A DNA stretch of 44,690 nt from an uncultured Candidatus Saccharibacteria bacterium (GCA_903839515.1 CAIMCP010000072.1:1-44690), one strand, 5' to 3'; numbered from the stretch's first letter, positions 1 to 23,744 are shown. Numbers and translations: made by a program. Notes: generated from the sequence alone by a model not told the origin.

Positions 1-2027
1 CCAACATATCCACCAATACTCATGCTGTAATTAGCACTTTCCACAGGTGTTACGCTTTTATCTGACAGGGTTGCTACAATCATAGCAACCGATGTTGCTC
101 CACAACCATTTGCACAAATTGTGCCCTTACCTGAAGGACTACTGTCGTAATGGGCGTTTGCCCATTTAGGATCACACTGATCGTAGAAGACAAAGTTTGC
201 TACCCCTGATCCTCCGCAACCACTAGAAGAAGCTGCTGTTTGACTACTTGGTACACCCCCAGCTTTCGTAAGCCAGCTAGCAAAATCAGGAGCCGATGAA
301 TAATCTATTTTAACACCACTAATTAGGCCTTTCTTATCAAGCGTTCCTGTTTTTACTGCACTATCTATCTGATTTCCATAGGACGCATAAGTCAATCCAC
401 CATTACCCGCTGGAGCTACATTTAACGAGGGATCGCTTTTATTTGGAAATGCTTTAGTAGCGGAAGGTTGGTACCAATTTATTGCCATCCAAAAAGGATC
501 GTTATTAAATTGTTTAGCCACAGGTATATTGGCGAGATAGGCGACCGCATCCTGAATACTTTCGGGTGCTAGATTTGCGGTAGCGTATTGCTGGGCTGGA
601 GGATAGAACTTTTTAGCGTAACCTTGCCAGGTTGCTGGAATGAATTGGTATTTACCGTAAGCCCCGTTACCACTATTGGCCGTTGGACTACCACCGCTTT
701 CATGCAAGGCTATAGCTTGCAAGAAAGCGTCTAATCCTCCGGCACTCGTTGGAGTACAAGCTGAACTACACGAAGCGTCGCTTCCACCAGGACTTACGCT
801 GGCAGTTTGAACCCCCGCAGGAGCATTAAGGAGCAAATCGTGCATTGCTTGGCCTGCTGTTGTTGTACTATCTGTGCCACTAATAAATGGGGCATCTGTC
901 GAAGGTTTAGCGAAACCTATCTCAAGCCAACCCGCAGGAGCAGCAGAACCATTTTCGTTAGGTGCTTTGTTAGTGTAAGCGATTAATTGGCCTGCTATAA
1001 CATGCTGATTAACAACTGACGGTATAACATGAACGTGTCCATAGTAAATCCAATCCGATGGACCACCGATAGATGTATCTAATTTTTCAACAGGATAATC
1101 GTTTCCGAATCCACCAGGGTCGGGACTTAATTGTTTTATTGTTCCAGGCGCTATTGCATATACACCCCCACCAGGAAATGTTTGTATATCCCAACCCTCA
1201 TCAACTCTCTGGTATTGCGTTGGTGTTTTTGTAGAAAAAGGCCAAACTAATCCTCCCGCAGTAGTTGTTGTGGTAGCTACTGTGCTTGGTGCAGCTGAAC
1301 CTGCAGGTACATTAGAGGCCATTGCCGATATATCGGCAGTCACGGCTGCAGAATAACCATTTGGGTCATTGCCATCTGATGCTGGAGCATAACCTCCAGC
1401 AGATAAAACAGTGAAAATACTTGCACCAGAATCTATATATTTACCAAATTGTGCCCTAAGATATGAAGCTTGATCCCCACCTCCGGCAATATTTTGGTTT
1501 TCAGCAGCAGTATAATCTACACTAGCTTTAATTGAAGACCAATAATACCACAAGTGACTTCCTTGAAAATTAGGCTGTGATGAAGTTGCTGTTCTTCCAA
1601 ATGAGTTATTAGCATGTTGAACATTGAAATCTGAAGGACTTGCCATACTTGATTCATGGTGGGCGAAAGCAACTATTAAAAATGGACTCACATTTGAATG
1701 CTGGGCATCTGCAACAATTACCGATCCAAGCCCAGCCATTTTGCTGGCAGGATTTGTCTTGGTAATGAAACTATCTATTGATGCAGCCATTGCAGTTGGG
1801 TCAAGGTTTGGAAAAGATAGTCCTGTTGGAGTTCCTACTCCTGCAACAACCGGAGTAGTTGATGATTCGCTAGTATTACATTTTGCACCAACCCAGTCAG
1901 TATAGTTGTTAAGAGCATTTAAATCTGACCGCGACATAGGTTCAGCGGAAACGGCACTAGCCATTAATATATTGAAAACCAACATGAGGCTTATAAAACT
2001 GAGTAAATACCTTTTTATTTTATTCAA
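1..2027 (-). CDS. Secreted multi-domain peptidoglycan hydrolase (VirB1/PrgK/CwlT functional class); C-terminus lies beyond the window edge
   Basis: This ORF is absent from the ORF track because it runs off the window. I translated it by hand from TTG at 2027, which overlaps the TGA of the upstream gene; GGAGG lies 6 nt upstream. There is no in-frame stop over 675 codons. The N-terminus MNKIKRYLLSFISLMLVFNILMASAVSA looks like a signal peptide. Four modules follow: FLIVAFAHHESSMAS..NNSFGR (glucosaminidase/FlgJ-like); WPF..DEGWDIQ..YYGHVHV..GQLIAYT (LytM/M23-like, first His not conserved); ALHESGGSPTANSGNGAYGKYQFIPATW (lysozyme-like transglycosylase); QCDPKWA..GTICANGCGATSVAMIV (C39/CHAP-like Cys peptidase). 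Confidence 0.8.
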   Translation of the reverse strand, partial: MNKIKRYLLSFISLMLVFNILMASAVSAEPMSRSDLNALNNYTDWVGAKCNTSESSTTPVVAGVGTPTGLSFPNLDPTAMAASIDSFITKTNPASKMAGLGSVIVADAQHSNVSPFLIVAFAHHESSMASPSDFNVQHANNSFGRTATSSQPNFQGSHLWYYWSSIKASVDYTAAENQNIAGGGDQASYLRAQFGKYIDSGASIFTVLSAGGYAPASDGNDPNGYSAAVTADISAMASNVPAGSAAPSTVATTTTTAGGLVWPFSTKTPTQYQRVDEGWDIQTFPGGGVYAIAPGTIKQLSPDPGGFGNDYPVEKLDTSIGGPSDWIYYGHVHVIPSVVNQHVIAGQLIAYTNKAPNENGSAAPAGWLEIGFAKPSTDAPFISGTDSTTTAGQAMHDLLLNAPAGVQTASVSPGGSDASCSSACTPTSAGGLDAFLQAIALHESGGSPTANSGNGAYGKYQFIPATWQGYAKKFYPPAQQYATANLAPESIQDAVAYLANIPVAKQFNNDPFWMAINWYQPSATKAFPNKSDPSLNVAPAGNGGLTYASYGNQIDSAVKTGTLDKKGLISGVKIDYSSAPDFASWLTKAGGVPSSQTAASSSGCGGSGVANFVFYDQCDPKWANAHYDSSPSGKGTICANGCGATSVAMIVATLSDKSVTPVESANYSMSIGGYV

Positions 2028-4735
2028 TTTCCACCTCCAAGATTTTGTTGCTGAGAGTCGGTTAATAAGCTAGTGTCATATACTGCTCCGGCAGCTCCAG
2101 TGGTAGATTTAATTAATAAACATGCATTTACTGAGTTATTAACTCCCTGCTGAGTATTCGGATCAATAGAATTTGTTGCTGCGTCATTCCAAGAATTATC
2201 TTTCCTATATGCTTGGGCTGCGTTATCTGAACAATTGTCATCCCAATATTGCTGAGGATCATCTGGTATTGATCCGTCTGGATAACCGTACTGTGTAATA
2301 CCAAATGGGTCACCCTGGAAACTAGGAGCCGCGAAGGCTTTTCTTGGGTTAATTATTGAAGAGAAGGAACTAGATAATTTATTAAAAGGATTGCTAATAA
2401 AACTAGATATTGTATCTTGAACAGTTGCTCCAAAACTATTAAAAGGTATACTCATAGAAATTGAAGAAACTAAAGAGAACCTACTGTCTGTGTTAAATAT
2501 TTTAGCCATAAATGATTGTTGGTTGAAATCTGACAACTCCTGATTGTATTCGTCATTCATTATTTTAGCAGTTTGTTGAGTGGTTAGGGCTTGACCTCCA
2601 AGCGTTGAGTGCGCATTATCGTTACCGGCAACATCAGCACCGGCGGCTATACTATTAAATGTTCTGCCACCACTCATATTTAGTCCTACTGTCTGAGGTA
2701 TTAGATAATTTACTACCGCCTCAACTATAGGGTTTATGGCTTTGCTTATTAGGCCTTTAGTTTGACAATAAAGAGGTAATATTGGCCCAAACGCGAATTG
2801 TAGCCCAGTAGGTAGGCTGCAGGCAGTATCCGCGACGCCAGTTAGCTTATTAGCAAAAAAACTTATTATGTCTTGAGCGCCACTAATTACCGCACCGATT
2901 GAGTTGGTCCAAATATCTGCAATAGCCTTAATAGCAGCTCCTGCGCCCGTTTTGAACCATTCAGATATTGCGTTTGCGATACCGTTACCTGCAGCAAAAT
3001 TCTCCTCATTACAGACTAATTGTCCGCTTGGAACAGGCTTACCATCATTACATATATACTTAGATGTTTTGTCTGTAGTTGACGTTGAAGCTGCAAAAAT
3101 TTTAGGAGATAATAGCGCGTCTGCAATGGTTGGAGATACAGTTGCTGTTTTTGGTGCAGGACTACCACCCAATAAGTTTGAATAAAGAGGGCTTTGTTCT
3201 GCTCCAGCCGTACCACCAATTAATGAATTCGTGGTATCGTCAACCTGACTTTTTGAAGCTGGGCCTAATGCACTGGTAAAACTCCCAACTTCAGCAGCAG
3301 TAACATGACCTGTGTGTATTTCGCTAGCTAAGGAACTATACATTCCCCAGGTTGCAACGGCCGAAGCAGAGTTAATAATATAGCCCAGTGCCCTAACTTT
3401 TGGTCCTGCGTGAGCTGCAAATTGAACAATTTCAGCAACCAAATTTATTTGCCCTACGAGCGGAACAGCTTTTCCTGCGGCTTCACCAGCTCCCTTACCT
3501 GCAAGCTCTGTAACAATTCTCTTAACTAAGTCCTTTGTAAAACCACCCTCGCTGTTAATTCTTTCAAGCTCTTTAGATAAATCTTCGATTGAGGTAAAAC
3601 CTAGTTTCGACAAAAGAGAGTCTAAAACCTTAGTGTTATCCTTTTCCAGTTTTGAACTAGCTCTACCGTTTTCCCCATCAGTATTCGATGGATTACTAGG
3701 ATCGTCAGGAGTTGTTGTTTCTGGCTTTGAAGGGTCACACTTTGGATCTATTAGACAAGTAACAGCCCCGCCCATAATAGAGGACCTTGGCGTTATAATT
3801 CTATTTACAAGAAACAATTTTGCGGCCACTTTCTGATCACTTATATTTTTAAAAAGAGGATCACTTATTTTGCAGAAAAATAAACACCTTCTGACGCCGT
3901 ATTTCTTTTCTAGTAACCTACCAACTTGGAATCTAGTATAAACTTTTTTGAAACCAGTTTCGTTAGCAGTCGCATCCCTAACAGCTTTTCTAACTCCGGC
4001 ATTATCAGAGCCTACAAAAATACTGTCAAAATAAATCCCTTCAGGCCCTAAATTTCTAATTGAATTACCAGGTGTTTTTAGTTGTAATTCACCACCACCA
4101 CTTATTTTAAATTCAACTCCGTATTTAGTAGCCAGCTTATTTTCTAATTTGTTATCCTTCCAGGTGTTAAATAATTTACTAACGGGTCCACCTTTTGTAT
4201 TTGCTTTTGCAGTACAGTTTTTATCAATAGTATTTCCACAATGTCCCTGATAGCCTGGAATAACTTGATCTTGGATATATTTTTTCAACAAATTATCTGT
4301 TTCTTTTTGAAGTGCTTGGTTGCCAGAAGCATAAAAATGACTCTTCAGGTTTTGGATAATGTGCTCAATCTTTAAAGGTATTAGCATTAAAAACATAGAA
4401 ACAACAAGAGCTGCAAGGCCACCAGCGGCACCACCACCAATAGCTATATTTTTTCTATTTTTTTTAACCGCACCAAACATTTTCTTGCCCATTATAGAGG
4501 CCCCGCCAGCAATAGAACTAGCCGCCGCTGGATTTGTGGTTTCGCTCTTCGAACCTGTACCAGAAACTAATCCACCAGCGGCACCACCAGTAAGCTTCTC
4601 TTTGTCTTCAAGACTTTTCGGACTAGATGAAGTCGGCTTAGTGGTATTAGATCCACTTTCCATAGCTTGAAGATTTGGTCGAGTAACCGGTGTTTGATCT
4701 TCTTTGTCGTATACACCGTTTGATTGACTTTCCAT
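2024..4735 (-). CDS. 903-aa membrane-anchored protein of the T4SS operon, function unknown
   Basis: Long ORF in the operon, with a 4-nt overlap to the hydrolase gene and a 7-nt gap after virB4. The first ~100 aa are Ser/Gly/Thr-rich and look disordered. A single TM follows (IAIGGGAAGGLAALVVSMFLMLIPL), then ~770 aa of Cys-containing, presumably extracytoplasmic sequence. I recognise no family motif. Confidence 0.75.
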   Translation of the reverse strand: MESQSNGVYDKEDQTPVTRPNLQAMESGSNTTKPTSSSPKSLEDKEKLTGGAAGGLVSGTGSKSETTNPAAASSIAGGASIMGKKMFGAVKKNRKNIAIGGGAAGGLAALVVSMFLMLIPLKIEHIIQNLKSHFYASGNQALQKETDNLLKKYIQDQVIPGYQGHCGNTIDKNCTAKANTKGGPVSKLFNTWKDNKLENKLATKYGVEFKISGGGELQLKTPGNSIRNLGPEGIYFDSIFVGSDNAGVRKAVRDATANETGFKKVYTRFQVGRLLEKKYGVRRCLFFCKISDPLFKNISDQKVAAKLFLVNRIITPRSSIMGGAVTCLIDPKCDPSKPETTTPDDPSNPSNTDGENGRASSKLEKDNTKVLDSLLSKLGFTSIEDLSKELERINSEGGFTKDLVKRIVTELAGKGAGEAAGKAVPLVGQINLVAEIVQFAAHAGPKVRALGYIINSASAVATWGMYSSLASEIHTGHVTAAEVGSFTSALGPASKSQVDDTTNSLIGGTAGAEQSPLYSNLLGGSPAPKTATVSPTIADALLSPKIFAASTSTTDKTSKYICNDGKPVPSGQLVCNEENFAAGNGIANAISEWFKTGAGAAIKAIADIWTNSIGAVISGAQDIISFFANKLTGVADTACSLPTGLQFAFGPILPLYCQTKGLISKAINPIVEAVVNYLIPQTVGLNMSGGRTFNSIAAGADVAGNDNAHSTLGGQALTTQQTAKIMNDEYNQELSDFNQQSFMAKIFNTDSRFSLVSSISMSIPFNSFGATVQDTISSFISNPFNKLSSSFSSIINPRKAFAAPSFQGDPFGITQYGYPDGSIPDDPQQYWDDNCSDNAAQAYRKDNSWNDAATNSIDPNTQQGVNNSVNACLLIKSTTGAAGAVYDTSLLTDSQQQNLGGGN

Positions 4736-4742
4736 ATTTACC

Positions 4743-6647
4743 CTAATTAATTGAGTTAGTTGATCCTGGAGCTAAAGTATTTGTAAGGTCTATGGTTCCC
4801 TCTTGGTATCCGCCAGCCGGCTGATTAGGATTAGTATTAACTAGATTCATCTCGGTTTGAGAGGCAACTACCTGAATATGTACGTGATTGGGCCCCGCAA
4901 AGAATAAGCCTTGTCCAACTGGGAATTGGCTTAGTCTTTTCTTCTCTTCCTCGGTTAATTTAAATACATCGGCAAGCACATCTACCGACGATGGAGACTG
5001 TTTGAAAAGAAGCTGCATAGAAGCATTGGCAACAATTGCCCGCCCCATTCGACTACCCATAAAGTCTTCGACGTCTTGGCTAATTGTAGTAATGCCAAGA
5101 TTATATTTTCTAGCCCTTTTAGCAAGAGAGAAAATAAAGTTAGCTGAATCTTCGTATTTCATGAGTTGCCAAGCTTCATCAATTATTAGCAGACGCTTCT
5201 TCTTATCCGACTTGGTTCTATTCCATATGTAGTTTAGGACAATGTACATAGCAACTGGTCTGAGTTCATCTTCAAGGTCTCTTACGTTAAAGACTACAAA
5301 TGGATTATCTATACTTATATTGCTTTGTTGAGAAAAAATACCTGCGAATGTACCAGTTGTGTATTTACGAATTCTTTGTGCAAGCTGAGGACCTGATCCG
5401 CCCATATGCAGTAACGTGTCATATAGATCAGCAATGGTTGGTGGAATTGTATTCTGGGTAAGTGGATCATTGGTTATGCCAGCCTTTGCATAAGTTTCAA
5501 TTAGGGCTGTATCTAAGTCAGACTCTTCAATTGGATTAAGCGCTGGAGAGACTGAATTATTGCCTCCTACGAGCTGTGCCTGAGCCCCACCCATCATAAG
5601 TCTAAGTAATCCGTGAAGCATGATTAAGTTACTTCTAAGTGCGTTATCTGCCTCCTCAGTGTCAATAACTTTAGGTAGATCAAATGGGTTAATTCTAGTA
5701 CTTGAGCTAAGGCTTAGTCTGACATATGCGCCGGCAACTGAGTCTGCAAGTTTTTGGTATTCGTTTTCAGGGTCAATTATAATAACTTCTGTACCAAACA
5801 TCATACTTCTAAGAGCTTCAAGTTTAACTGCAAAGGACTTTCCGGCTCCAGATTTAGCAAAGACAACCGAATTACCATTTTCTAGACTAAATCTGTCGAA
5901 TATAACAAGCCCAGAGTTATGCATATTAATTCCATAAAGGATTCCATTGTCTTGGCTTAAATTGGCACTAGTAAATGGAAAACTCGTAGATAGTGCACCT
6001 GTATTCATGTTACGTCTAATTTGCATTTCATCCACAAATTGAGGAACTACAGTATTAAGACCTTGTTCTTGTTGTGATGTTCCAGGCTTTGAATAAATTA
6101 GACCTTGTCCAAGCATTGTTTCAACCTTATGTGAAACAAACTCTAGCTCATCCATATCATTTGCATAAACATTGAAATAAAGTCCAAACCTAAAGAATCT
6201 TTCTTCTCCAACTTGAAGTTTGTCTCGCATTTCTTCGGCGTCCTGAATGGCTGCTTGTTTACCCGGATCTCTAACCTTGCCTTTTTCGGCATCAATTTGA
6301 ATTCCGGCTTCGAGTTGAGTCACCTTTTTTCTAAGATTCTGCATAACTATTTGGCTGGCAACAGGATAGATATAAATACTAATATCTATTACTTCATCAA
6401 TGTTAACTAGGCCGCTCAACCAGCCAGTATTAATTTGTCTTGGGTATCCATAAACATAGTAGCTTCTAGCAAGCCTTGTACCGATTCGGAAATAGTTACT
6501 TTGAAGCTCAATTGAACTTGGGGCAATGAAATCACGAAGGGCTGTAATGCCTTTTTGGAAAGCCATCATCACTTCTTGCTGTTCTTGTCGTTTTTGGTTT
6601 TCGGCTAATACCAGTGGATCAACTTTTTTATTCCCAAAAGCCATCAC
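4743..6647 (-). CDS. virB4: VirB4/TrsE-type T4SS ATPase
   Basis: Walker A is VVFAKSGAGKSFAVK and Walker B is KKRLLIIDEAWQLM, followed by ITTISQDVEDF. The N-terminal segment IAPSSIELQSNYFRIGTRLARSYYVYGYPRQINTGWLSGL..IDISIYIYP is typical of monoderm VirB4 proteins. Confidence 0.9.
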   Translation of the reverse strand: MMAFGNKKVDPLVLAENQKRQEQQEVMMAFQKGITALRDFIAPSSIELQSNYFRIGTRLARSYYVYGYPRQINTGWLSGLVNIDEVIDISIYIYPVASQIVMQNLRKKVTQLEAGIQIDAEKGKVRDPGKQAAIQDAEEMRDKLQVGEERFFRFGLYFNVYANDMDELEFVSHKVETMLGQGLIYSKPGTSQQEQGLNTVVPQFVDEMQIRRNMNTGALSTSFPFTSANLSQDNGILYGINMHNSGLVIFDRFSLENGNSVVFAKSGAGKSFAVKLEALRSMMFGTEVIIIDPENEYQKLADSVAGAYVRLSLSSSTRINPFDLPKVIDTEEADNALRSNLIMLHGLLRLMMGGAQAQLVGGNNSVSPALNPIEESDLDTALIETYAKAGITNDPLTQNTIPPTIADLYDTLLHMGGSGPQLAQRIRKYTTGTFAGIFSQQSNISIDNPFVVFNVRDLEDELRPVAMYIVLNYIWNRTKSDKKKRLLIIDEAWQLMKYEDSANFIFSLAKRARKYNLGITTISQDVEDFMGSRMGRAIVANASMQLLFKQSPSSVDVLADVFKLTEEEKKRLSQFPVGQGLFFAGPNHVHIQVVASQTEMNLVNTNPNQPAGGYQEGTIDLTNTLAPGSTNSIN

Positions 6648-7468: not shown

Positions 7469-7517
7469 TTATTTCTTTGCCACCCCTTAGCGGTAATAAT
7501 TATTATTTCTAACTAAC

Positions 7518-8549: not shown

Positions 8550-8570
8550 CAATCATTGTCCTTAGATTAT

Positions 8571-11500
8571 TTAGGGATTATTCTGACCATTTCCACCATT
8601 GTTTGTTGGTGGGAGATTATCTCTAATTAAGTCAGCGTTTGCTTCGGCCACGTCAGCATTTTCGTAACTCATGAATTTACCCGATGGAGTTCTGGGTCTG
8701 CCACTCGAGTCTATATCTATGATGTCATCAGACCATCTAGGATATGTAGGTGGAGTCGGTGGTGCAGGAGGAGCTGGTGGTGGAGTCGGTGGTGCAGGAG
8801 GAGCTGGTGGTGGAGTCGGTGGTGCAGGAGGCAGCCCACCAACGACCCTAACATCATCGCTTGCCCTTCTAGCTTGTGCGACTGCCTGAGTATATGCCGG
8901 ACTTGGAGGTCCTGCAACGCCACCAGGTGCAGCACTACCTGCAAATGCTTGATATCCAGCATCGCCCGCAATAAAGCTTGTTATGTGCCCTAAGCCCTCT
9001 GTCGCTGCTGTCCTTTGGTCTGGTGAAGCTGTCGCACTACTAATTATTCCCTGAAGTTCCTCCTGAGCTTGAGCTACTGCTGCATATTCTGCAACACCAG
9101 CTCCGGGCTTACTAGCGGCTTCAGCGGCACCTTGACCCTGGGCAATAAAAGCTGATGGTTTATTGTTAAGATAGGCAGTCTTATCTTGTCGAGAAACAGC
9201 TTTAATTGGATTGTACTCCACGCTAGTATCGCCAAGATGGCCAAATCCTGCCGCACCAAGTGCGCCCTTAGCTGCTATAAGTTTTTGCGAAGCAACACCA
9301 TAATTATCGTCATTCGTATCAAGAACAGTTCTCCCTTGAGCATCTGTGGTGTAATCACAACCAGTTGATCTAGCAACATCTCTCACTAGCCTATCATGTC
9401 CAATTCCTGGATCCTCACCAGAGTCTGTGTTGTATCCATACCCAGCGGCAACTTTTTGAGCAAGAAATGCATCACCAGTTCCTGCGCTCTGTCTAATTTG
9501 ACGTGCCGCAGCCACTGCACCCGCTGCGGCGCCCCCATTTGCGGTCGCTAGTCTATTTAATTCGAATTCGCCTTGTTGTCTCGACATTGCTCCGGTGGCC
9601 ATGGCTGACATAATAATTCCCGCATCATTATAGTCTGCATTGCCTTTCCACTGCTCGTTGATTGGATTGCTGGCAAGCTCTTGAGCGCCTGCAGCTCCTG
9701 TTCTTGCAGATCTTCTAATCGCAGCACCGCCCCCCCCATGTCTTAGTCTGGTCCCTATTGCACCAACTGAAGTACCGTTCTGTTCTCGTCCAGCTTGTGC
9801 TCTTCTTCTGGCGGTGTTGTAGCGACTATTAGGATCTCTTGGATCGCCTCTAAGTGATTTGTTGGCCCAATCAGCACCCTTCTTAGTCATGCCACTAACT
9901 TGAGAAATTACTCCTCCAGAAATTTTGAAAGCAAAAGGTATAAGAAAGAGCGGTATAATTCCAGCGATTATGCCTAAAATTTGGTTCCAAGAATTATCAG
10001 AAGAAAGACTTCCAAAAACTACTGCCGTAACATTGGCAATCGCTATAACCAGCATTACAACTGGATATACTACTAGGGTTTTTATTAAAAGATCCCACCA
10101 TTTTTTAAAATATTGTTCAGTGTTTGGTAGACAATATAGCGCAAAAGCAATAGGCGCTGTTATGGTTAGGAATATAATTAAGCCCTGTCTAATGACTATG
10201 GTAATGAGAACGCCAATGACCGCCAATATGGCTGGAACGGCTATTGTCAATAGCAGGAATCCAATACCGTCCCCAATAATACCAATAAGCAGAAGTGTTG
10301 CGGCTCCACCACCCGCAAGAGTTGTGAGTATTCCCGTCCCACCGCCAACCATAATGTGCCAAACTCCCGCAGCTAGAAAAGGTTGCTTTATTAGGTCGTA
10401 AACACCAGCGCCTAAGATATTAAATACATCAATCATAATCGCAACGACATATATCGATAGATTGATTAAAATAACAGCAACCAATATTCTTGGAATCATC
10501 TTTTTTATCGTATAGTTTGCAACCATCCCACCGCCAATTGCCTCAACAAGTACTGCAATCAAAAGAGCTATAATTAGGAAAAGGTTTCCATATATTCTAA
10601 AGTTTGCCCAAACATTAAAAATACACCCGCTGTTATCGTTTGGGCTACAAGTCGTACTAAAGTTTATTGGAGTGACTTTGAGTAAAGATGCCACTTCGTT
10701 TTCTATCGTAGATTCTAAGCCAGTAATACCGTCAAAAACAGCACAGGTTATCCACGAAAGAGGACCACCACTACTTAAGCAATCCTCGGAGGATGTAGGT
10801 CCACCACCCGAATTAGATGTTGAACCTGTTGACGCTGGAATCGGTACGGATGGGCTTGAGCCAGGAGTTCCTAGAACAGCTATTACAAAACCACCATTGG
10901 CATTAACGGTAGAAGGAGATCCATTAGTATAGCCAATTTGACCATAGCCTAGCAGATCTAAATAGCATGATGGAGAATAAGGAATTTTTGCTGGCGTTAT
11001 TGTAGTAGGGCTTGATTTTATTGGATAGAACGTAGCAGTACCGTTTTTGTAAACAATTATAGATGAACAGGGAGTACCAACAAGTGAGTAAACATCCCCG
11101 GCAGAGCTAATTTTTTTATCCTGATTAAATTTATTTCCTCCATTCATATTCACAATACTTGTTCCGCTAAACTCGTAGGTATATTTAGAGTTATTGCCGT
11201 CACCAATATTGATTATCGTCGTAGTCTCTGGCTGACAGCCACCGTTTCCAGTTCCAGCTCCACCCAAAAGCCACTGGGCTCTAAATTGACCACCTGCAGA
11301 TGTGCTGGCTCCAGTTCCGCCAGGAGTTGCATTTATTATTGCGTGTGAACTAGCACAAGCTGGTTTGTCGCTTGTATATTCACCCGTACCACCCGTGTAA
11401 TAGTCGTAAGCTCCATTTTTATCTATAAATTTAATAGTAGACTTATCTGGAAGTGTGCCTACGATTGTATAGGCACTTTGCCACTTAAAATCAATTGCTT

Positions 11501-11621
11501 TAACCCCAGTTTTGAAGCTTGTGAATGTTAAATCAGCAAAGGAAACCGCTTTTCCTGTAAAAACAAAAAACAGTAAGGCCAGTACTAAACTCGACGATAG
11601 AATTAATAATTTTTTTTTCAT
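8571..11621 (-). CDS. VirB6/TrbL-like polytopic channel protein with large N-terminal ectodomain and Ala/Gly/Pro-rich C-terminal tail
   Basis: Signal peptide MKKKLLILSSSLVLALLFFVFTGKAVSFA, then a ~330-aa Cys-containing domain. Next comes a block of roughly 7-8 hydrophobic helices (about aa 340-590). The last ~420 aa are an Ala/Gly-rich tail ending in PPAPPTPPPAPPAPPTPPPAPPAPPTPPT. It is the first gene of the operon. Confidence 0.75.
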   Translation of the reverse strand: MKKKLLILSSSLVLALLFFVFTGKAVSFADLTFTSFKTGVKAIDFKWQSAYTIVGTLPDKSTIKFIDKNGAYDYYTGGTGEYTSDKPACASSHAIINATPGGTGASTSAGGQFRAQWLLGGAGTGNGGCQPETTTIINIGDGNNSKYTYEFSGTSIVNMNGGNKFNQDKKISSAGDVYSLVGTPCSSIIVYKNGTATFYPIKSSPTTITPAKIPYSPSCYLDLLGYGQIGYTNGSPSTVNANGGFVIAVLGTPGSSPSVPIPASTGSTSNSGGGPTSSEDCLSSGGPLSWITCAVFDGITGLESTIENEVASLLKVTPINFSTTCSPNDNSGCIFNVWANFRIYGNLFLIIALLIAVLVEAIGGGMVANYTIKKMIPRILVAVILINLSIYVVAIMIDVFNILGAGVYDLIKQPFLAAGVWHIMVGGGTGILTTLAGGGAATLLLIGIIGDGIGFLLLTIAVPAILAVIGVLITIVIRQGLIIFLTITAPIAFALYCLPNTEQYFKKWWDLLIKTLVVYPVVMLVIAIANVTAVVFGSLSSDNSWNQILGIIAGIIPLFLIPFAFKISGGVISQVSGMTKKGADWANKSLRGDPRDPNSRYNTARRRAQAGREQNGTSVGAIGTRLRHGGGGAAIRRSARTGAAGAQELASNPINEQWKGNADYNDAGIIMSAMATGAMSRQQGEFELNRLATANGGAAAGAVAAARQIRQSAGTGDAFLAQKVAAGYGYNTDSGEDPGIGHDRLVRDVARSTGCDYTTDAQGRTVLDTNDDNYGVASQKLIAAKGALGAAGFGHLGDTSVEYNPIKAVSRQDKTAYLNNKPSAFIAQGQGAAEAASKPGAGVAEYAAVAQAQEELQGIISSATASPDQRTAATEGLGHITSFIAGDAGYQAFAGSAAPGGVAGPPSPAYTQAVAQARRASDDVRVVGGLPPAPPTPPPAPPAPPTPPPAPPAPPTPPTYPRWSDDIIDIDSSGRPRTPSGKFMSYENADVAEANADLIRDNLPPTNNGGNGQNNP
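8749..8830. repeat. Perfect 30-bp tandem repeat (about 2.7 copies) inside the VirB6-like CDS
   Basis: The plus-strand unit ggtggagtcggtggtgcaggaggagctggt occurs at 8749-8778 and 8779-8808, and partially at 8809-8830. It is in frame (10 codons) and encodes the PPAPPAPPTP repeats. Confidence 0.9.
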
Positions 11622-11752
11622 CCGACCATTACCTTTAAACTAAACATATAATCCCTAAAAGCCATATAATATAAATATATCATAACGCTAAGCTTTAATA
11701 TTAGCATTTAGTTATAAAAAAATGGATAAAATTTTACAAGAGCTCATGCATA

Positions 11753-11781
11753 TTGATTTACTGGCCTTCAGTATATATAGT
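11753..11781 (+). promoter_or_regulatory. Candidate sigma70-type promoter of the pilin array
   Basis: TTGATT (11753-58), a 17-nt spacer, then TATAGT (11776-81). The ATG at 11790 lies 8 nt after the -10, with no SD in between. Confidence 0.4.
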
Positions 11782-11789
11782 AAAACCTA

Positions 11790-12224
11790 ATGATTAAGCA
11801 TAAAAAACATAAAAACTTCACGATGAGAAAAACGTTTGTAGCTTTTTTTTGCTTATTCTTTCTTTCTATTGTCCCCGCAACCCCAGCTTTCGCCGGAAAG
11901 GTTTGTGGTGGTGGGCCTCAGCCAAATGGCGGTGACCCCTATCCGTCAACCACCACTGCAATCGATTTAGGCTGTACCGGAAAAGGAAACCCTATCATGG
12001 ATATGTTGTTTGGAGTTATTAGATTTTTGGCAGCTGGTGTTGGAGTTGTGATAATAGGATCAACAATTTTTGCTGGCGTTCAATACGCAACCGCGAGAGA
12101 TAGCCCAGAGGCCGTCCAGAAAGCTAAAGGCAGGATTATATCTAATTTAATGGCACTTCTCCTCTATATATTTGGCTATGCCCTTCTCAACTTCCTAATA
12201 CCGGGAGGGTTCTTTAACAGATGA
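11790..12224 (+). CDS. VirB2/TrbC-type T4SS pilin-like protein, paralog 1
   Basis: Signal peptide ending PAFA|G, a variable segment with 2 Cys, then two TM helices flanking a short polar loop (QYATARDSPEAVQKAKGRII). An alternative start is ATG 11823 (MRKTF). Confidence 0.7.
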   Translation: MIKHKKHKNFTMRKTFVAFFCLFFLSIVPATPAFAGKVCGGGPQPNGGDPYPSTTTAIDLGCTGKGNPIMDMLFGVIRFLAAGVGVVIIGSTIFAGVQYATARDSPEAVQKAKGRIISNLMALLLYIFGYALLNFLIPGGFFNR

Positions 12225-12589
12225 TTAATCTTCTAACATCTTTCGCAGATTCTACCTGCACATTTAGTGGAGGCGCTTTCTTGACACTACCGCACTGGTA
12301 TCAGTATTTGAGCGGTACGATGGTTAATAATGTCTGCAGCCCCCAAATTCAAGGTATTAACGATATTTGGCTTATTGTCCTTGCCGTTACAGAGATGCTA
12401 CTTCAGCTAGTTGCGCTTATTGCTATCATAATGGTTATTTATGGAGGTGTTCAAATGCTTACAAGTCAAGGGCAGCCAGATGGCATAGCTAAAGCAAGGA
12501 CGACAATTATTAATGCACTTATTGGAATGACGATATCTATTGCCGCAGCAGCCATAATAACATTCTTGGCGGGGAATATTGGCGGATGA
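12221..12589 (+). CDS. VirB2/TrbC-type pilin-like protein, paralog 2 (no obvious signal peptide)
   Basis: ATGA overlap with paralog 1. Two Cys in the N-terminal segment, then TM - QMLTSQGQPDGIAKARTTIINAL - TM. Confidence 0.65.
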   Translation: MINLLTSFADSTCTFSGGAFLTLPHWYQYLSGTMVNNVCSPQIQGINDIWLIVLAVTEMLLQLVALIAIIMVIYGGVQMLTSQGQPDGIAKARTTIINALIGMTISIAAAAIITFLAGNIGG

Positions 12590-12912
12590 TAGGAATACTT
12601 AACACCTTTCACCAATTAGCAGCATCGGGAACAGCTGCGGTCAATAGTTGTGGAACCGGAAACTGTAGTATTGGCATCCCAACGGTTGGTGCCAATAATG
12701 GATCGCTAACATCAATTCTGCAAATCGTTTTTGGAATAATTGGATCAGTCGCAGTTCTTATCATAGTATTAGCTGGGCTTCAGCTAATTACATCTGGCGG
12801 AAATCCTGAATCAGCCAAAAAAGCCAGAGAGACAATTATATATGCCGTTGCGGGACTGGTGATTGTAGTAAGTGCCGAAATTATAGTCACCTTCTTCCTG
12901 GGAAAATTGTAA
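12586..12912 (+). CDS. VirB2/TrbC-type pilin-like protein, paralog 3 (no obvious signal peptide)
   Basis: ATGA overlap with paralog 2. CGTGNC pair, then TM - LQLITSGGNPESAKKARETIIYAV - TM. Confidence 0.65.
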   Translation: MIGILNTFHQLAASGTAAVNSCGTGNCSIGIPTVGANNGSLTSILQIVFGIIGSVAVLIIVLAGLQLITSGGNPESAKKARETIIYAVAGLVIVVSAEIIVTFFLGKL

Positions 12913-12914
12913 TT

Positions 12915-13304
12915 ATGAAAAAATACCTATCAATTCTTTTAATACCATTATTTATACTCTCATTTAGTACAAATGTTTTTGCGGTAGATTTGCTCGCAAA
13001 CACATGCGCCAATGCAAACTCTAATCAGCCAGGTTCAGCTCCAGGTATCTGCAGAGATAACCAGACCAACTCCACCACAAATCCAATCTATTCAATCTTC
13101 AAAACTGTACTAAACCTTCTATCTTATGCAATTGGCTTTATATCTGTAGTTGTAATAATAATTGCAGGACTAAGGATGATTTTATCCGGAGGAGATCCGC
13201 AAACGCTGAATTCAGCCAGGAACGCAATTATTTATGCAGCTGGAGGAATAGTAATTGCTGCAATCGCTCAAATAATTGTAGTTTTTGTACTAAGCAGGTT
13301 TTAA
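12915..13304 (+). CDS. VirB2/TrbC-type pilin-like protein, paralog 4
   Basis: Signal peptide ending NVFA|V, 2 Cys, then LLSYAIGFISVVVIIIAGLRMILSGGDPQTLNSARNAIIYAAGGIVIAAIAQIIVVFVL. Confidence 0.75.
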   Translation: MKKYLSILLIPLFILSFSTNVFAVDLLANTCANANSNQPGSAPGICRDNQTNSTTNPIYSIFKTVLNLLSYAIGFISVVVIIIAGLRMILSGGDPQTLNSARNAIIYAAGGIVIAAIAQIIVVFVLSRF

Positions 13305-13320
13305 TACTATAATTAACAAT

Positions 13321-13728
13321 ATGAGAAATATAATACACAAACTTAAAATTCCAATAATTACCTTCACGATAATGATGAGCTTTGGCGTGGCCTCTAGCTC
13401 TTTAGCATTTGCGAGCCCTTTTAACAGCGCCACCAATTCTGTGTGTAACGGCGCCGCAATAAATGGTACTGGTCAATGTTCAGGAAATACAAGCCAGACC
13501 AGCCTTAATAATGTTTTAAAAACAGTACTTAACATACTGTCATTTGTTGTTGGATTTGTCGCAGTTCTTATGATTATTATAAGTGGTTTTAGGATAATTG
13601 TTTCAGGCGGCGACACGAATTCATTTAATAGCGCCAAAAATGGACTTTTGTACGCCGTAATTGGTATTGTTATTGTTGCAATATCTCAAGTCATAGTTCA
13701 GTTTGTTCTAACAAATGCTACAAAATAA
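13321..13728 (+). CDS. VirB2/TrbC-type pilin-like protein, paralog 5
   Basis: Signal peptide ending LAFA|S, 2 Cys, then ILSFVVGFVAVLMIIISGFRIIVSGGDTNSFNSAKNGLLYAVIGIVIVAISQVIVQFVL. Confidence 0.75.
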   Translation: MRNIIHKLKIPIITFTIMMSFGVASSSLAFASPFNSATNSVCNGAAINGTGQCSGNTSQTSLNNVLKTVLNILSFVVGFVAVLMIIISGFRIIVSGGDTNSFNSAKNGLLYAVIGIVIVAISQVIVQFVLTNATK

Positions 13729-13805
13729 AATACTATTGCTTAACTTGAGTTAAATATGATATATAATTAGATAAAGAAATTTAAAATTCGAAAGGCCAAT
13801 AAGAA

Positions 13806-14228
13806 ATGATTAAATCACTAAAATATAAACTATTTACACTAGCAACCGGTATTGCTTTACTGCTTCCGCTAGGTTTCAGTAGCCTTGCATATGCCCAAGG
13901 CTTTGATCAACAGAATGCATTTAAATCGCAAGGATGTTCAGGAACACAGGCCGGCGGAACAACAACATGCGCTAACGCAGGTACAAGCCTAAACACCTTA
14001 ATTAAAAATATATTGAATGTTCTATCTTATGTCGTTGGTGTCGTTGCCGTTATTATGATTATTATAGCTGGATTTAGGTACATTGTATCTGGTGGTGAAT
14101 CGGGCGGTGTTACGGGGGCCAAGAACGCAATTCTATTCGCAATCGTAGGCATAGTTATAGTGGCAATCGCTCAAATAATTGTTCAGTTTGTACTTACAAA
14201 GTCAACTGCAACCACATCTACTCCTTAA
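13806..14228 (+). CDS. VirB2/TrbC-type pilin-like protein, paralog 6
   Basis: Signal peptide ending LAYA|Q, 2 Cys, then VLSYVVGVVAVIMIIIAGFRYIVSGGESGGVTGAKNAILFAIVGIVIVAIAQIIVQFVL. It shares the 19-nt string caatcgctcaaataattgt with paralog 4. Confidence 0.75.
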   Translation: MIKSLKYKLFTLATGIALLLPLGFSSLAYAQGFDQQNAFKSQGCSGTQAGGTTTCANAGTSLNTLIKNILNVLSYVVGVVAVIMIIIAGFRYIVSGGESGGVTGAKNAILFAIVGIVIVAIAQIIVQFVLTKSTATTSTP

Positions 14229-14248
14229 GTATATATAGTATGGAAAAC

Positions 14249-14278
14249 AAAAAAGGCTCGTGCTAGCGAGCCTTTTTT
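14249..14278. terminator. Bidirectional intrinsic terminator between the pilin array and hsp20
   Basis: aaaaaaGGCTCGtgctagCGAGCCtttttt. The GC stem is at 14255-60 and 14267-72. It is flanked by an A-run and a T-run, so it reads as hairpin plus U-tract on both strands. Confidence 0.75.
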
Positions 14279-14297
14279 AATATCTATTATTTTTTGT

Positions 14298-14771: not shown

Positions 14772-14828
14772 ATTGTTACCCTCCATTGATTTATGCTATT
14801 TGTACTTACCCTTTTTGTCTTAGTGTTA

Positions 14829-14857
14829 AGTATATCTATGTTTATGAAAATGAGCAA
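14829..14857 (-). promoter_or_regulatory. Candidate hsp20 promoter
   Basis: On the minus strand: TTGCTC (14857-52), a 17-nt spacer, then TATACT (14834-29). Confidence 0.4.
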
Positions 14858-14946: not shown

Positions 14947-14957
14947 CGTAACTGATT

Positions 14958-15047
14958 GGAAGGGTCGCATAGTGGTCGAGTGCACCTGTCTTGAAAACAG
15001 GAGAACCGGAAACGGTTCCGTGGGTTCGAATCCCACCCCTTCCGCCA
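14958..15047 (+). tRNA. tRNA-Ser (anticodon UGA), CCA encoded
   Basis: Hand-folded. Acceptor GGAAGGG/CCCTTCC; anticodon stem CCTGT/ACAGG with loop CTTGAAA; long variable arm GAACCG-GAAA-CGGTTC; T arm GTGGG-TTCGAAT-CCCAC. Confidence 0.9.
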
Positions 15048-15082
15048 TTGTACTTTTATTAGGTACAATTATGTGAATCTAT

Positions 15083-23734: not shown

Positions 23735-23744
23735 ATCAAACTAC

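What the first reader, a model, noticed from the sequence alone, without database searches (positions are those of the whole stretch)
1..14228. Compact monoderm-style type IV secretion-like locus with no relaxase or coupling protein in view
Seen in sequence:
- Six co-directional minus-strand genes are tightly packed, with 4-nt overlaps at 2024-2027 and 6644-6647 and gaps of 7-49 nt.
- They encode a VirB6/TrbL-like giant, a PrgI/VirB3-like protein, a 274-aa protein, a VirB4 ATPase (Walker A GAGKS, Walker B LLIIDEAW), a 903-aa membrane-anchored orphan, and a multi-domain PG hydrolase.
- Six small VirB2/TrbC-like pilin genes are transcribed divergently from them.

Established knowledge: VirB4, VirB6, VirB3, a VirB1-type hydrolase and pilin form the conserved core of monoderm T4SSs.

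Inference:
- Nothing in the window resembles a relaxase, a VirD4/TcpA-type coupling ATPase, an integrase or a partition system.
- The right flank is housekeeping (hsp20, two tRNA-Ser, envelope genes).
- The locus therefore looks like a chromosomal, possibly non-conjugative apparatus.
- In an ultrasmall, host-dependent bacterium the obvious hypotheses are host-contact, effector, DNA or nutrient trafficking.

T4SS-like loci have been noted in Saccharibacteria-type genomes, so the class is not new. Several components here have no assignable function.
Basis: partly seen in the sequence, partly recalled or inferred. Interest (0 to 1): 0.75.

Follow-up and report, generated by a model that had tools for sequence, protein, structure and literature searches.

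The report
Saccharibacteria chromosomal type IV secretion locus
This is the well-documented chromosomal, relaxase-free type IV secretion and pilus gene cluster that Saccharibacteria carry beside their replication origin; it is real and correctly read, but already described in the literature, and its function is still unknown.

Summary
Window 1-14228 carries six co-directional minus-strand genes: a cell-wall hydrolase, a 903-aa membrane-anchored protein, VirB4, a 274-aa TrsD-like protein, PrgI/VirB3, and a VirB6/TrbL-like giant. Six VirB2-type pilin genes are transcribed divergently from them.

The same gene order recurs across the 80 Saccharibacteria species loci fetched, where the flanks are held. 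In 54 of 55 loci with enough flank, recF-dnaN(-dnaA) follows downstream; hsp20 lies on the pilin side in 32 loci. No relaxase, coupling protein, integrase or att repeat was found, so the integrative-element rival is rejected.

The locus matches, gene for gene, SEML1_0006-0020 of Southlakia epibionticum. Those genes were essential in Tn-seq (Wang 2023), and the system was surveyed across Patescibacteria by Quinonero-Coronel et al. (2025). It is therefore already known.

Corrections and additions:
- The 274-aa protein matches the N-terminal part of VirB4 profiles (TrsD-like).
- The 903-aa "orphan" belongs to a large unannotated family (634 clusters at E<=1e-30). The predicted fold is all-helical with no match in the PDB or BFVD, and relatives carry swappable C-terminal enzyme domains.
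- The hydrolase gene is strongly domain-shuffled between species.
- Pilins fall into about four position-conserved classes.
- VirB4 is more conserved than DnaA.

The likely role is a coupling-protein-independent pilus and wall-breaching apparatus at the host interface. Its substrate is unknown.

The parts
1..2027 (-). Secreted multi-domain cell-wall hydrolase in the VirB1 role. It has a signal peptide, an unassigned N-terminal domain, an M23-like domain, an SLT/transglycosylase domain and a C39-like cysteine peptidase. The 3' end is cut by the window and contig edge.
   Evidence: SLT 37 bits, Transglycosylas 44 bits; M23 and C39_2 below cutoff. One search shows the TTG start with a Shine-Dalgarno. 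One search shows the contig end. One search shows that the same gene position in 60 relatives carries shuffled hydrolase domains.
2024..4735 (-). 903-aa bitopic membrane protein. The N-terminus is disordered, there is one transmembrane helix (about 97-128), and the rest is a roughly 775-aa cysteine-rich all-helical ectodomain. It is the scaffold-only member of a large family whose relatives carry variable C-terminal enzyme domains. It sits at the position of SEML1_0007.
   Evidence: no Pfam or NCBIfam hit. (homologues; invariant Cys columns). (AF2 pLDDT 66, pTM 0.71). (no fold match). (TM helix). (634 clusters at E<=1e-30). (VanY, M23, CHAP, EEP, GDSL and phosphatase C-termini in relatives).
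4743..6644 (-). VirB4 ATPase of the CD1110/MPF-FATA type, 633 aa. It covers profile positions 183-733 of 752, so it lacks the N-terminal segment.
   Evidence: It is 75-92% identical across Saccharibacteria.
6644..7468 (-). 274-aa TrsD-like protein that matches the N-terminal part of VirB4 profiles. It sits at the position of SEML1_0009.
   Evidence: CD1110 profile positions 3-118; VirB4_plasma 94-246; TrsD 27 bits; all below cutoff. (precomputed PF26593 TraC-like). (29% identity, E 1e-26 to the 274-aa protein beside VirB4 in Pontibacillus).
7518..8552 (-). PrgI/VirB3-like protein: an N-terminal two-TM PrgI domain followed by a charged extension of about 250 aa.
   Evidence: PF12666, 29.7 bits against a cutoff of 27; residues 6-92. 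(TM segments).
8571..11621 (-). Extended VirB6/TrbL-like protein. It has a signal peptide, an ectodomain of about 300 aa, a polytopic core (about 290-575), a helical C-terminal domain and a proline-rich tail.
   Evidence: PF19590. (transitive Pfam TrbL via P0114). (CD3337/EF1877, 22 bits). (best fold match is R388 TrwI/VirB6). (30-bp repeat).
11622..11789 (.). Divergent intergenic region between the machinery operon and the pilin operon. It presumably holds promoters for both.
   Evidence: sigma-70-like matches at 11641-11670 and 11753-11781, + strand. These are consensus matches only.
11790..12224 (+). Pilin 1, VirB2-like. Its position class next to VirB6 is conserved across species.
   Evidence: 20.4 bits, below cutoff. 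(Mbov_0395 pilin-like, 26.9 bits). (positional orthology).
12221..12589 (+). Pilin 2, VirB2-like.
   Evidence: 29.3 bits against a cutoff of 26.6..
12586..12912 (+). Pilin 3, VirB2-like.
   Evidence: 52.6 bits..
12915..13304 (+). Pilin 4, a member of the pilin 4/5/6 paralogue group.
   Evidence: 37.4 bits. (47% identity to pilins 5 and 6).
13321..13728 (+). Pilin 5.
   Evidence: 42.3 bits..
13806..14228 (+). Pilin 6.
   Evidence: 47.3 bits..
14248..14279 (.). Bidirectional terminator-like hairpin with a 13-bp stem, closing the pilin operon and the convergent hsp20 gene.
14298..14786 (-). hsp20, a conserved neighbour that marks the right boundary of the locus.
   Evidence: (hsp20 next to the pilin array in 32 loci, 70-87% identical). 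(SEML1_0020).
14958..15175 (+). Two tRNA-Ser genes. They form the boundary and are not an attachment site.
   Evidence: (no repeat of their 3' ends in the locus).

Best explanation
Identity (confidence about 0.95). This is the vertically inherited chromosomal type IV secretion-derived apparatus of Saccharibacteria. Judged by gene order and domain content, it corresponds to SEML1_0006-0019 of Southlakia epibionticum. It is not a mobile element.

How it probably works (inferred; about 0.35 for the full chain):
1. A VirB4 hexamer works with a separately encoded TrsD-like protein that resembles the VirB4 N-terminal domain. PrgI/VirB3 tethers the ATPase to the membrane.
2. This motor extracts VirB2-type pilins from the membrane and polymerises them on an extended VirB6 platform. 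The resulting pilus or tube is built from about four non-redundant pilin classes.
3. The pilus passes through a hole cut in the cell wall by the co-encoded hydrolases.
4. No coupling protein is needed. In Agrobacterium, VirD4 is likewise dispensable for T-pilus biogenesis, and the Bordetella Ptl system has no coupling protein at all.
5. The fast-evolving, Sec-exported, wall-active modules are the secreted hydrolase and the 903-aa anchored scaffold, whose relatives carry swappable C-terminal peptidase, esterase, nuclease or phosphatase domains. These are proposed to act at, or be delivered to, the host cell envelope. This would make or maintain the epibiont-host junction through which the parasite feeds.

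What is shown: the gene content, synteny, conservation pattern and domain shuffling.

What is inferred: pilus formation, a heteromeric pilus, host-directed action, and the nature of the substrate.

The confidence value of 0.8 refers to the identity together with the general mode, namely a chromosomal, coupling-protein-independent pilus and secretion apparatus at the host interface.
For: - Components: VirB4 passes the CD1110 equivalog cutoff and matches 4AG5. The TrsD-like protein matches the N-terminal positions of VirB4 profiles. PrgI passes its cutoff. VirB6 is supported by precomputed and transitive Pfam hits and by the best fold match. Five of six pilins pass T4SS_pilin.
- Chromosomal and vertically inherited: the order hsp20 | pilins | VirB6 | PrgI | TrsD | VirB4 | 903-aa | hydrolase recurs across the 80 species loci wherever the flanks are held. 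recF-dnaN(-dnaA) follows in 54 of 55 loci, including the two closest relatives.
- Strong constraint: median VirB4 identity is 80%, against 71% for DnaA, 62% for DnaN and 49% for RecF in the same 31 loci. This fits the Tn-seq essentiality of SEML1_0006-0011 and 0013-0019 (PMC10633639).
- Host-facing parts diverge fast: median identity is 39-44% for pilins, 31% for VirB6 and 29% for the 903-aa protein.
- Hydrolase modules are shuffled. At the hydrolase position in 61 proteins: Phage_lysozyme2 34, GDSL 12, Amidase_3 11, M23 9, CHAP 9, NlpC/P60 8, C39_2 7, SLT_2 7. At the C-terminus of the 903-aa position in 60 loci: VanY 7, M23 4, Exo_endo_phos 3, GDSL 3, CHAP 2, Y_phosphatase3 1.
- Pilin order 1-2-3 followed by pilin 4/5/6-like copies is kept in 24 of 30 arrays. 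All six pilin genes are essential in S. epibionticum.
- A conjugative relative in Embleya has a coupling protein and a relaxase-family gene directly after VirB4, where this locus has the 903-aa gene and the hydrolase.
Against: - Function has never been shown experimentally. The literature calls it 'completely unknown' (PMC11665869).
- No pilus has been visualised.
- Coupling-protein homologues exist elsewhere in many Patescibacteria genomes (PMC12102498). The rest of this genome could not be inspected.
- The hydrolases may act only on the bacterium's own wall.
- Tn-seq essentiality of upstream pilin genes could partly reflect polar effects.
- The 903-aa model has only moderate confidence (pLDDT 66).
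- The VirB6 fold match is weak (E 0.25).
- Correspondence to the S. epibionticum genes rests on gene order and domain annotation, not on direct alignment.
Confidence: 0.8

Rival explanations
1. An import machine. The apparatus would take up host DNA, nucleotides or other macromolecules, like the Helicobacter ComB T4SS or the archaeal Ced system, both of which lack a coupling protein and a relaxase.
For: There is no relaxase or coupling protein in the locus or in its conserved flanks. VirB4 has a weak similarity to CedB (47 bits) and CedD (31 bits), far below their cutoffs. Saccharibacteria cannot make nucleotides, and comEC-dependent competence is dispensable while the T4SS is essential. This has led authors to propose this role (PMC11665869; PMC12857230).
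Against: No homologue of the other ComB subunits (ComB7-10) or of CedA was found among the locus proteins. No DNA-binding or nuclease component is conserved in the locus. The conserved partners are wall hydrolases. The VirB4 is nearest to conjugative Gram-positive VirB4s (CD1110 family), not to CedB or ComB4.
Confidence: 0.2
2. A contact or adhesion organelle only. The machine would build a VirB2 pilus that binds the host, and nothing would pass through it.
For: The gene set is essentially the pilus-biogenesis subset of a T4SS without a substrate receptor. Pilins diverge fast, as expected for host-binding surfaces.
Against: Saccharibacteria already use type IV pili for adhesion and motility (PMC10633639; PMC11623550, listed). 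The tight and universal linkage to diverse wall-degrading and other enzyme modules is not needed for adhesion alone.
Confidence: 0.15
3. An ordinary or decaying integrative conjugative element inserted at tRNA-Ser, with its relaxase, coupling protein and integrase lying just beyond the left edge.
For: VirB4 belongs to a family otherwise found on conjugative elements of Firmicutes and Actinobacteria. Two tRNA-Ser genes lie 0.7 kb from the pilin array.
Against: In the two closest relatives (90-92% VirB4 identity), the region beyond the hydrolase is one or two small ORFs followed by recF, dnaN, dnaA and rnpA. recF-dnaN follows in 54 of 55 loci. Gene order, including hsp20, is conserved across species. 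VirB4 is more conserved than DnaA. There is no att-like repeat of the tRNA-Ser 3' ends. No integrase, relaxase or coupling protein was found among the window ORFs scanned.
Confidence: 0.02

Closest known systems
Saccharibacteria/Patescibacteria chromosomal T4SS. The prototype is Southlakia epibionticum ML1 SEML1_0006-0019 (Wang et al. 2023, PMC10633639); the phylum-wide survey is Quinonero-Coronel et al. 2025 (PMC12102498).
   Same: The gene order is the same: dnaA-dnaN-recF ... hydrolase, large anchored protein, VirB4, TrsD-like, PrgI, VirB6-like, six divergent VirB2-like pilins, hsp20, tRNA-Ser. There is no relaxase or coupling protein nearby, and the locus is close to dnaA.
   Different: The window has one VirB6-like giant, whereas ML1 has two (0011 and 0013). 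The window also lacks the non-essential NTF2-like gene 0012. The window's 903-aa protein lacks the C-terminal DD-peptidase domain of SEML1_0007. The hydrolase domain set differs: M23-like, SLT and C39-like here, against lysozyme, lysozyme and cysteine protease in ML1.
Gram-positive conjugative T4SS of the MPF-FATA class with CD1110-family VirB4. Examples are pGO1/pIP501-type systems with TrsD and TrsE, pCF10 PrgI/PrgJ/PrgK, and the Embleya plasmid NZ_CP108778.1.
   Same: Shared features are a CD1110-family VirB4 (352 bits), a TrsD-like partner, PrgI, a VirB6-like polytopic protein and a multi-domain wall hydrolase. From my own knowledge, not tested here: the M23, SLT and cysteine-peptidase combination resembles PrgK.
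   Different: The conjugative systems carry a coupling protein and a relaxase. In Embleya these lie directly after VirB4. They sit on mobile elements. Published descriptions say they lack VirB2 pilins. Here there is no coupling protein or relaxase, the location is chromosomal and next to the origin, and there are six pilins.
Pilin-bearing, relaxase-less module on the Pontibacillus sp. ALD_SL1 898-kb replicon (NZ_CP062975.1), and the Mbov_0395/Mbov_0397 families of Mycoplasma ICEs.
   Same: The Pontibacillus module has two VirB2-like pilins (phmmer E about 1e-9 to 1e-11 against window pilins), a polytopic 779-aa protein, a 116-aa protein, a 274-aa TrsD-like protein (29% identity), VirB4 (36% identity) and an anchored 1050-aa peptidoglycan metalloendopeptidase. 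No relaxase or coupling protein is annotated within 12 kb. Window pilins also hit the NCBIfam Mbov_0395 pilin-like family below its cutoff.
   Different: The pilins there are co-directional and only two in number. The large hydrolase shows no detectable similarity to the 903-aa family. The host is a free-living Bacillota species. Function and essentiality are unknown.
T4SSs that work without a coupling protein: Bordetella Ptl, Brucella VirB, Helicobacter ComB and archaeal Ced.
   Same: They operate without a VirD4-type receptor (PMC12102498; PMC12857230). Ptl substrates are first exported by Sec, which parallels the signal peptide and membrane anchor on the hydrolase and the 903-aa protein.
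   Different: Ptl, Brucella VirB and ComB are diderm systems with VirB7-10 components, and Ced is archaeal. None of their other subunits is detectable here.

Membership tests
Patescibacteria-clade chromosomal T4SS (Wang 2023; Quinonero-Coronel 2025) | VirB4 belongs to the Patescibacteria VirB4 group | tested here: met
   It is 75-92% identical to VirB4 in 80 fetched Saccharibacteria species loci, and 588 relatives were confirmed. The nearest plasmid VirB4s are only 27-37% identical. No formal phylogeny was built.
Patescibacteria-clade chromosomal T4SS (Wang 2023; Quinonero-Coronel 2025) | TrsD-like, PrgI/VirB3 and VirB6 genes adjacent to virB4 | tested here: met
Patescibacteria-clade chromosomal T4SS (Wang 2023; Quinonero-Coronel 2025) | Array of 2-11 divergent VirB2-like pilin genes near virB4 | tested here: met
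   There are six genes, 20-50% identical to each other. Five pass the PF18895 cutoff.
Patescibacteria-clade chromosomal T4SS (Wang 2023; Quinonero-Coronel 2025) | No relaxase or coupling protein in the cluster; chromosomal location close to dnaA | tested here: met
   None was found among the window ORFs scanned. recF-dnaN(-dnaA) lies 5.7-9.8 kb past VirB4 in 54 of 55 relatives. The window itself ends before that point.
Patescibacteria-clade chromosomal T4SS (Wang 2023; Quinonero-Coronel 2025) | Essential for epibiotic growth | not testable with these tools
   This is known only for S. epibionticum ML1. Very high VirB4 conservation is consistent with it.
Conjugative MPF-FATA T4SS / integrative conjugative element | VirB4 of the Gram-positive conjugative type | tested here: met
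   NF045971 conju_CD1110 at 352 bits against a cutoff of 325.
Conjugative MPF-FATA T4SS / integrative conjugative element | Coupling protein (VirD4 or TcpA) and relaxase linked to the system | tested here: not met
   Absent from the window ORFs scanned and from the conserved flanks in relatives. The rest of the genome was not inspected.
Conjugative MPF-FATA T4SS / integrative conjugative element | Integrase, att direct repeats and patchy distribution as a mobile element | tested here: not met
   No integrase and no tRNA-Ser 3' repeat were found. The flanking synteny is fixed across species.
VirB6/TrbL family (1016-aa protein) | Polytopic core matching TrbL/VirB6 profiles or fold | tested here: inconclusive
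   A direct Pfam scan gave no significant hit (TrbL E 4.1). Precomputed PF19590 TrbL_3 hits exist on this protein and on many homologues. Homologue P0114 passes PF04610 over the aligned region. The best fold match is TrwI/VirB6, with probability 0.93 but E 0.25. Taken together, membership is probable.
VirB2/TrbC pilins | Small protein with a signal or leader sequence and two hydrophobic helices, matching T4SS_pilin or TrbC | tested here: met
   Pilin 1 is below the cutoff. Pilins 2 and 3 show no N-terminal hydrophobic leader segment in the scan.
ComB / Ced DNA-uptake T4SS | ComB7-10 or CedA/A1/A2 partners; ComB4- or CedB-type ATPase | tested here: not met
   The only hits are weak ones to CedB (47 bits against a cutoff of 700) and CedD (31 bits against 600). 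No partner families were hit.
Gram-positive VirB1-type hydrolases (PrgK/TraG/CwlT-like) | Secreted or anchored protein combining a lytic transglycosylase with a peptidase domain, encoded in the T4SS operon | tested here: met
   The SLT and Transglycosylas domains are significant. M23 and C39_2 are below cutoff. The gene is the last of the operon visible in the window.

The most novel reading that the evidence does not exclude
Two linked proposals go beyond what I found in the papers read.

1. The 903-aa family (SEML1_0007-like) is a fold not represented in the PDB or BFVD. It would act as a membrane-anchored carrier whose C-terminus is a swappable 'warhead': DD-peptidase, M23, CHAP, GDSL esterase, EEP nuclease/phosphatase or tyrosine phosphatase. 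Together with the equally shuffled downstream hydrolase, it would be the host-directed payload of a Ptl-like, coupling-protein-independent T4SS. On this reading the Saccharibacteria T4SS is a host-wall-breaching and effector-presenting device.

2. Its pilus would be a fixed heteromer of about four ancient pilin classes, not a set of antigenic variants.

Related pilin-bearing, relaxase-less modules also exist in Bacillota (Pontibacillus). VirB2-type pilins may therefore be ancestral to this branch of monoderm T4SSs rather than a Patescibacteria novelty.
Probability: 0.25. Interest if true: 0.6.

Novelty: already known. Interest (0 to 1): 0.3.

Why it matters
The Saccharibacteria T4SS is described as the first T4SS shown to be essential for the bacterium that carries it, and its function is an open question in the biology of ultrasmall epibionts (PMC12857230, PMC11665869). 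This window adds one more species copy. It does not change the picture.

The comparative details gathered here could help design experiments on the known system:
- the shuffled enzyme modules on a conserved scaffold;
- the position-conserved pilin classes;
- VirB4 being more conserved than DnaA;
- a Bacillota relative with pilins.

Tried and rejected
- The exact-match contig look-up with the 634-aa GTG-start VirB4 found nothing. The 633-aa ATG-start protein was found, but the contig ends at the same place as the window, so it gave no extra left flank.
- Profile searches of the 903-aa and 1016-aa families against PDB sequences gave only low-complexity noise.
- Foldseek of the 903-aa model against the PDB and BFVD gave no match with E below 0.1.
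- A direct Pfam scan of the VirB6-like core failed. This Pfam copy appears to lack PF19590.
- The unassigned N-terminal 260 aa of the hydrolase got no Pfam hit.
- I considered the 903-aa protein as a degenerate coupling protein and rejected it. It has no P-loop hit, a single TM helix, and a cysteine-rich region with ten invariant Cys columns that is presumably extracellular.
- I considered an ICE inserted at tRNA-Ser and rejected it.
- Rfam found only the two tRNAs in 1-16000.
- The whole-genome presence of a distant coupling protein in this organism could not be checked.

Full report
**What is there**

- Gaps on the minus strand are 7, 49 and 18 nt.
- The hydrolase TTG start at 2027 overlaps the upstream stop by 4 nt and has a GGAGGTG ribosome-binding site.
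- At the other claimed 4-nt overlap, the GGAGG at 6651-6655 fits the ATG at 6644 rather than the GTG at 6647. VirB4 is therefore 633 aa and the overlap is 1 nt. The public gene call agrees.
- A terminator-like hairpin with a 13-bp stem at 14248-14279 closes the pilin operon and the convergent hsp20 gene.

**Identity of the parts**

- VirB4 passes the NCBIfam equivalog for CD1110-family conjugative VirB4 (352 bits against a cutoff of 325). It covers profile positions 183-733 of 752. It also hits Pfam P-loop_TraG, AAA_10 and DUF87 and the Gram-positive VirB4 C-terminal domain structure 4AG5 (E 4.8e-46).
- The 274-aa protein matches the N-terminal positions of the same VirB4 profiles (CD1110 positions 3-118; VirB4_plasma 94-246) and TrsD. 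All these hits are below cutoff. Its precomputed annotation is PF26593 TraC-like. It therefore corresponds to the TrsD-like protein that Quinonero-Coronel et al. describe as the most abundant partner of Patescibacteria VirB4.
- PrgI passes its Pfam cutoff over residues 6-92 and carries a C-terminal extension of about 250 aa.
- Five pilins pass PF18895. Pilin 1 is below the cutoff.
- All three pilins tested (1, 3 and 6) also match the NCBIfam Mycoplasma-ICE 'Mbov_0395 pilin-like' family below its cutoff.
- In the hydrolase, the SLT and transglycosylase domains are significant, while the M23-like and C39-like domains are below cutoff. The gene is truncated by the window edge, which is also a contig end in the public assembly.

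**The VirB6 claim**

My Pfam copy gave no hit for the 1016-aa protein and appears to lack PF19590. The claim is still probably right, for four reasons:
- This protein and dozens of homologues carry precomputed PF19590 TrbL_3.
- Homologue P0114 passes PF04610 TrbL over the region that aligns to window residues 281-590 at 36% identity.
- NCBIfam gives a weak CD3337/EF1877 mobilome membrane protein hit.
- In the AlphaFold model the membrane core has pLDDT 80-90, and its best PDB matches are five chains of R388 TrwI/VirB6. These matches are weak (probability 0.57-0.93, target TM-score about 0.4, E 0.25-1.2).

The protein is an 'extended' VirB6, with an ectodomain of about 300 aa and a C-terminal region of about 430 aa. 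That region ends in a proline-rich tail encoded by a perfect 30-bp tandem repeat.

**The 903-aa 'orphan'**

It has no Pfam, NCBIfam or PDB sequence match, but it is not an orphan.
- A profile of 33 homologues finds 634 clusters at E<=1e-30 among 50%-identity cluster representatives.
- It has a disordered N-terminus, one transmembrane helix (about 97-128) and a roughly 775-aa all-helical domain with ten invariant cysteine columns.
- The model (pLDDT 66, pTM 0.71) has no Foldseek match in the PDB or BFVD.
- Many relatives are 1000-1700 aa because they add a C-terminal enzyme domain. Across 60 loci the counts are VanY/M15 7, M23 4, Exo_endo_phos 3, GDSL 3, CHAP 2, and tyrosine phosphatase, M14 and NlpC/P60 1 each.
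- The window copy is scaffold-only.

**The hydrolase gene**

The downstream hydrolase gene is just as variable. Among 61 proteins at that position, Phage_lysozyme2 occurs in 34, GDSL in 12, Amidase_3 in 11, M23 in 9, CHAP in 9, NlpC/P60 in 8, C39_2 in 7 and SLT_2 in 7. Even the two closest relatives differ from the window: one has Amidase_3 plus CHAP, the other GDSL plus a weak, sub-cutoff Amidase_5 hit.

**Context and the mobile-element question**

- A scan of GTDB species genomes confirmed 588 VirB4 relatives. The best 80 are 75-92% identical, and nearly all records are labelled Saccharibacteria, Saccharimonadales or Patescibacteria; a few carry only generic labels and one is labelled Dormiibacterota.
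- Wherever the flanks are held, gene order is hsp20 | pilin array (divergent) | VirB6-like | PrgI | TrsD-like | VirB4 | 903-aa family | hydrolase.
- Beyond the hydrolase, the two closest relatives have one or two small ORFs, then recF, dnaN and dnaA; rnpA also follows in one of them (L051).
- recF-dnaN follows within 5.7-9.8 kb of VirB4 in 54 of 55 loci with enough flank.
- The window's right side is housekeeping.
- No relaxase, coupling ATPase, integrase or partition gene is present among the ORFs scanned. The tRNA-Ser 3' ends have no repeat in the locus.
- In the same 31 loci, median VirB4 identity is 80%, against 71% for DnaA, 62% for DnaN and 49% for RecF.

This is a core chromosomal system next to the origin-region genes, not an ICE.

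**Comparison with the literature**

Tables S1 and S2 of Wang et al. 2023 list the following for S. epibionticum ML1:
- dnaA, dnaN, recF;
- two small exported proteins;
- a lysozyme/lysozyme/cysteine-protease protein (0006);
- an 1113-aa protein with a C-terminal DD-peptidase (0007);
- VirB4 (0008);
- a 293-aa protein (0009);
- PrgI (0010);
- VirB6-like giants (0011 and 0013);
- six pilins (0014-0019);
- Hsp20 (0020);
- tRNA-Ser.

All the T4SS genes except the NTF2-like 0012 are scored essential. Quinonero-Coronel et al. 2025 describe the same repertoire across Patescibacteria: MPF-FATA-related VirB4, TrsD, PrgI, VirB6, VirB2 arrays of 2-11 genes, rarity of relaxases, coupling proteins mostly distant from virB4, and proximity to dnaA. 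Reviews state that the function is completely unknown and list effector delivery or uptake as speculation. The finding is therefore already known. The correspondence to ML1 rests on synteny and domain content, not on a direct alignment.

**Relatives outside the phylum**

The nearest plasmid-borne VirB4s are 27-37% identical and come from Bacillota and Actinomycetota.
- An Embleya plasmid shows the conjugative layout: a 753-aa protein, a 349-aa PrgI, a 165-aa protein, VirB4, then a coupling protein, a replication-relaxation family protein and NlpC/P60. The coupling protein and the relaxase-family gene occupy the position where Saccharibacteria have the 903-aa gene and the hydrolase.
- A Pontibacillus 898-kb replicon has two VirB2-like pilins, a polytopic protein, a 116-aa protein, a TrsD-like 274-aa protein (29% identity), VirB4 (36% identity) and an anchored 1050-aa peptidoglycan metalloendopeptidase. 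No relaxase or coupling protein is annotated within 12 kb, and flagellar genes flank the module.

Pilin-bearing, relaxase-less modules are therefore not confined to Patescibacteria.

**Pilins**

The six are 20-50% identical to each other. Across 30 arrays (4-9 genes, most often 6), the order from the VirB6 side is pilin 1, pilin 2, pilin 3, then two or three or more copies resembling pilins 4-6. This order holds in 24 of 30 arrays. These are ancient, position-conserved classes rather than recent variants. Combined with the essentiality of all six genes in ML1, this favours non-redundant roles, such as a heteromeric pilus or major and minor pilins, over antigenic variation. Polar effects in Tn-seq are a caveat.

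**Mechanism**

The gene content, conservation pattern and domain shuffling are shown. The rest is inferred.
- VirB4 with the TrsD-like protein and PrgI would power the assembly of VirB2 pilins on a VirB6 platform through a hydrolase-cut hole.
- This would work without a coupling protein, as in Agrobacterium T-pilus biogenesis and the Ptl system.
- The Sec-exported, rapidly diversifying wall-active modules would act at the host envelope.
- I put about 0.35 on that full chain, about 0.2 on an import role, about 0.15 on adhesion only, and about 0.02 on a mobile element.

**Verdict**

The system is already known, and interest is low to moderate (0.3).

Noticed in passing
L081 (NZ_CP062975.1, Pontibacillus sp. 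ALD_SL1) 6018-17036: This Bacillota 898-kb replicon carries a homologous module: two VirB2-like pilins, a polytopic 779-aa protein, a 116-aa protein, a TrsD-like 274-aa protein, VirB4 (36% identity) and an anchored 1050-aa PG metalloendopeptidase. No relaxase or coupling protein is annotated within 12 kb, and chemotaxis and flagellar genes flank it. This suggests that pilin-bearing, relaxase-less monoderm T4SS modules exist outside Patescibacteria.
   Followed up: partly
L082 (NZ_CP108778.1, Embleya sp.) 8110-18426: This actinobacterial plasmid relative (VirB4 37% identical) has a 349-aa PrgI like the window's. It places a coupling protein and a replication-relaxation protein directly after VirB4, then NlpC/P60. 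It is a useful picture of the conjugative counterpart.
   Followed up: partly
window 8749-8831: A perfect 30-bp tandem repeat (2.8 copies) encodes the proline-rich repeats near the C-terminus of the VirB6-like protein. Repeats of this kind are prone to changes in copy number.
   Followed up: no
window about 27000-28000 (whole-window profile): Cumulative GC skew reaches its minimum near 27-28 kb. In relatives, however, dnaA lies only about 5 kb beyond the left edge of the window. The skew may follow gene orientation rather than replication.
   Followed up: no
window 23597-24535: A MazE-like antitoxin and a PIN-domain toxin form a pair directly downstream of divergent tRNA-Arg and tRNA-Ser genes. 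The listed antitoxin ORF start (23751) overlaps the tRNA-Ser gene, so the true start is probably further downstream.
   Followed up: no
window 31089-31916: A 275-aa amidinotransferase-fold protein hits the DDAH and arginine deiminase families. Arginine catabolism is reported as essential in cultivated Saccharibacteria (PMC10633639).
   Followed up: no
window 24596-25435: One 279-aa protein fuses an HTH_3 (Cro/C1-type) DNA-binding domain to a HAD-family hydrolase domain.
   Followed up: no
window 22178-23596; 40748-41689; 17345-17857; 34007-34588; 42593-43213: These ORFs of 170-472 aa have no Pfam family at E<=0.001-0.01. None was examined further.
   Followed up: no
L064 (DALYDK010000005.1): This is the only locus of 55 without recF-dnaN downstream of VirB4. 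Its pilin genes lie about 9 kb downstream instead of upstream, so it is a rearranged variant of the locus.
   Followed up: no
loci L003, L029, L039, L056, L080 and others (region between the pilins and PrgI): The space between the pilin array and PrgI ranges from about 3 kb to about 7 kb. This implies one VirB6-like giant in some species, as in the window, and two in others, as in S. epibionticum ML1.
   Followed up: partly
window 14298-14786 and relatives: hsp20 sits next to the pilin array in 32 loci (70-87% identical) and is scored essential in S. epibionticum. Whether this linkage is functional is unknown.
   Followed up: no
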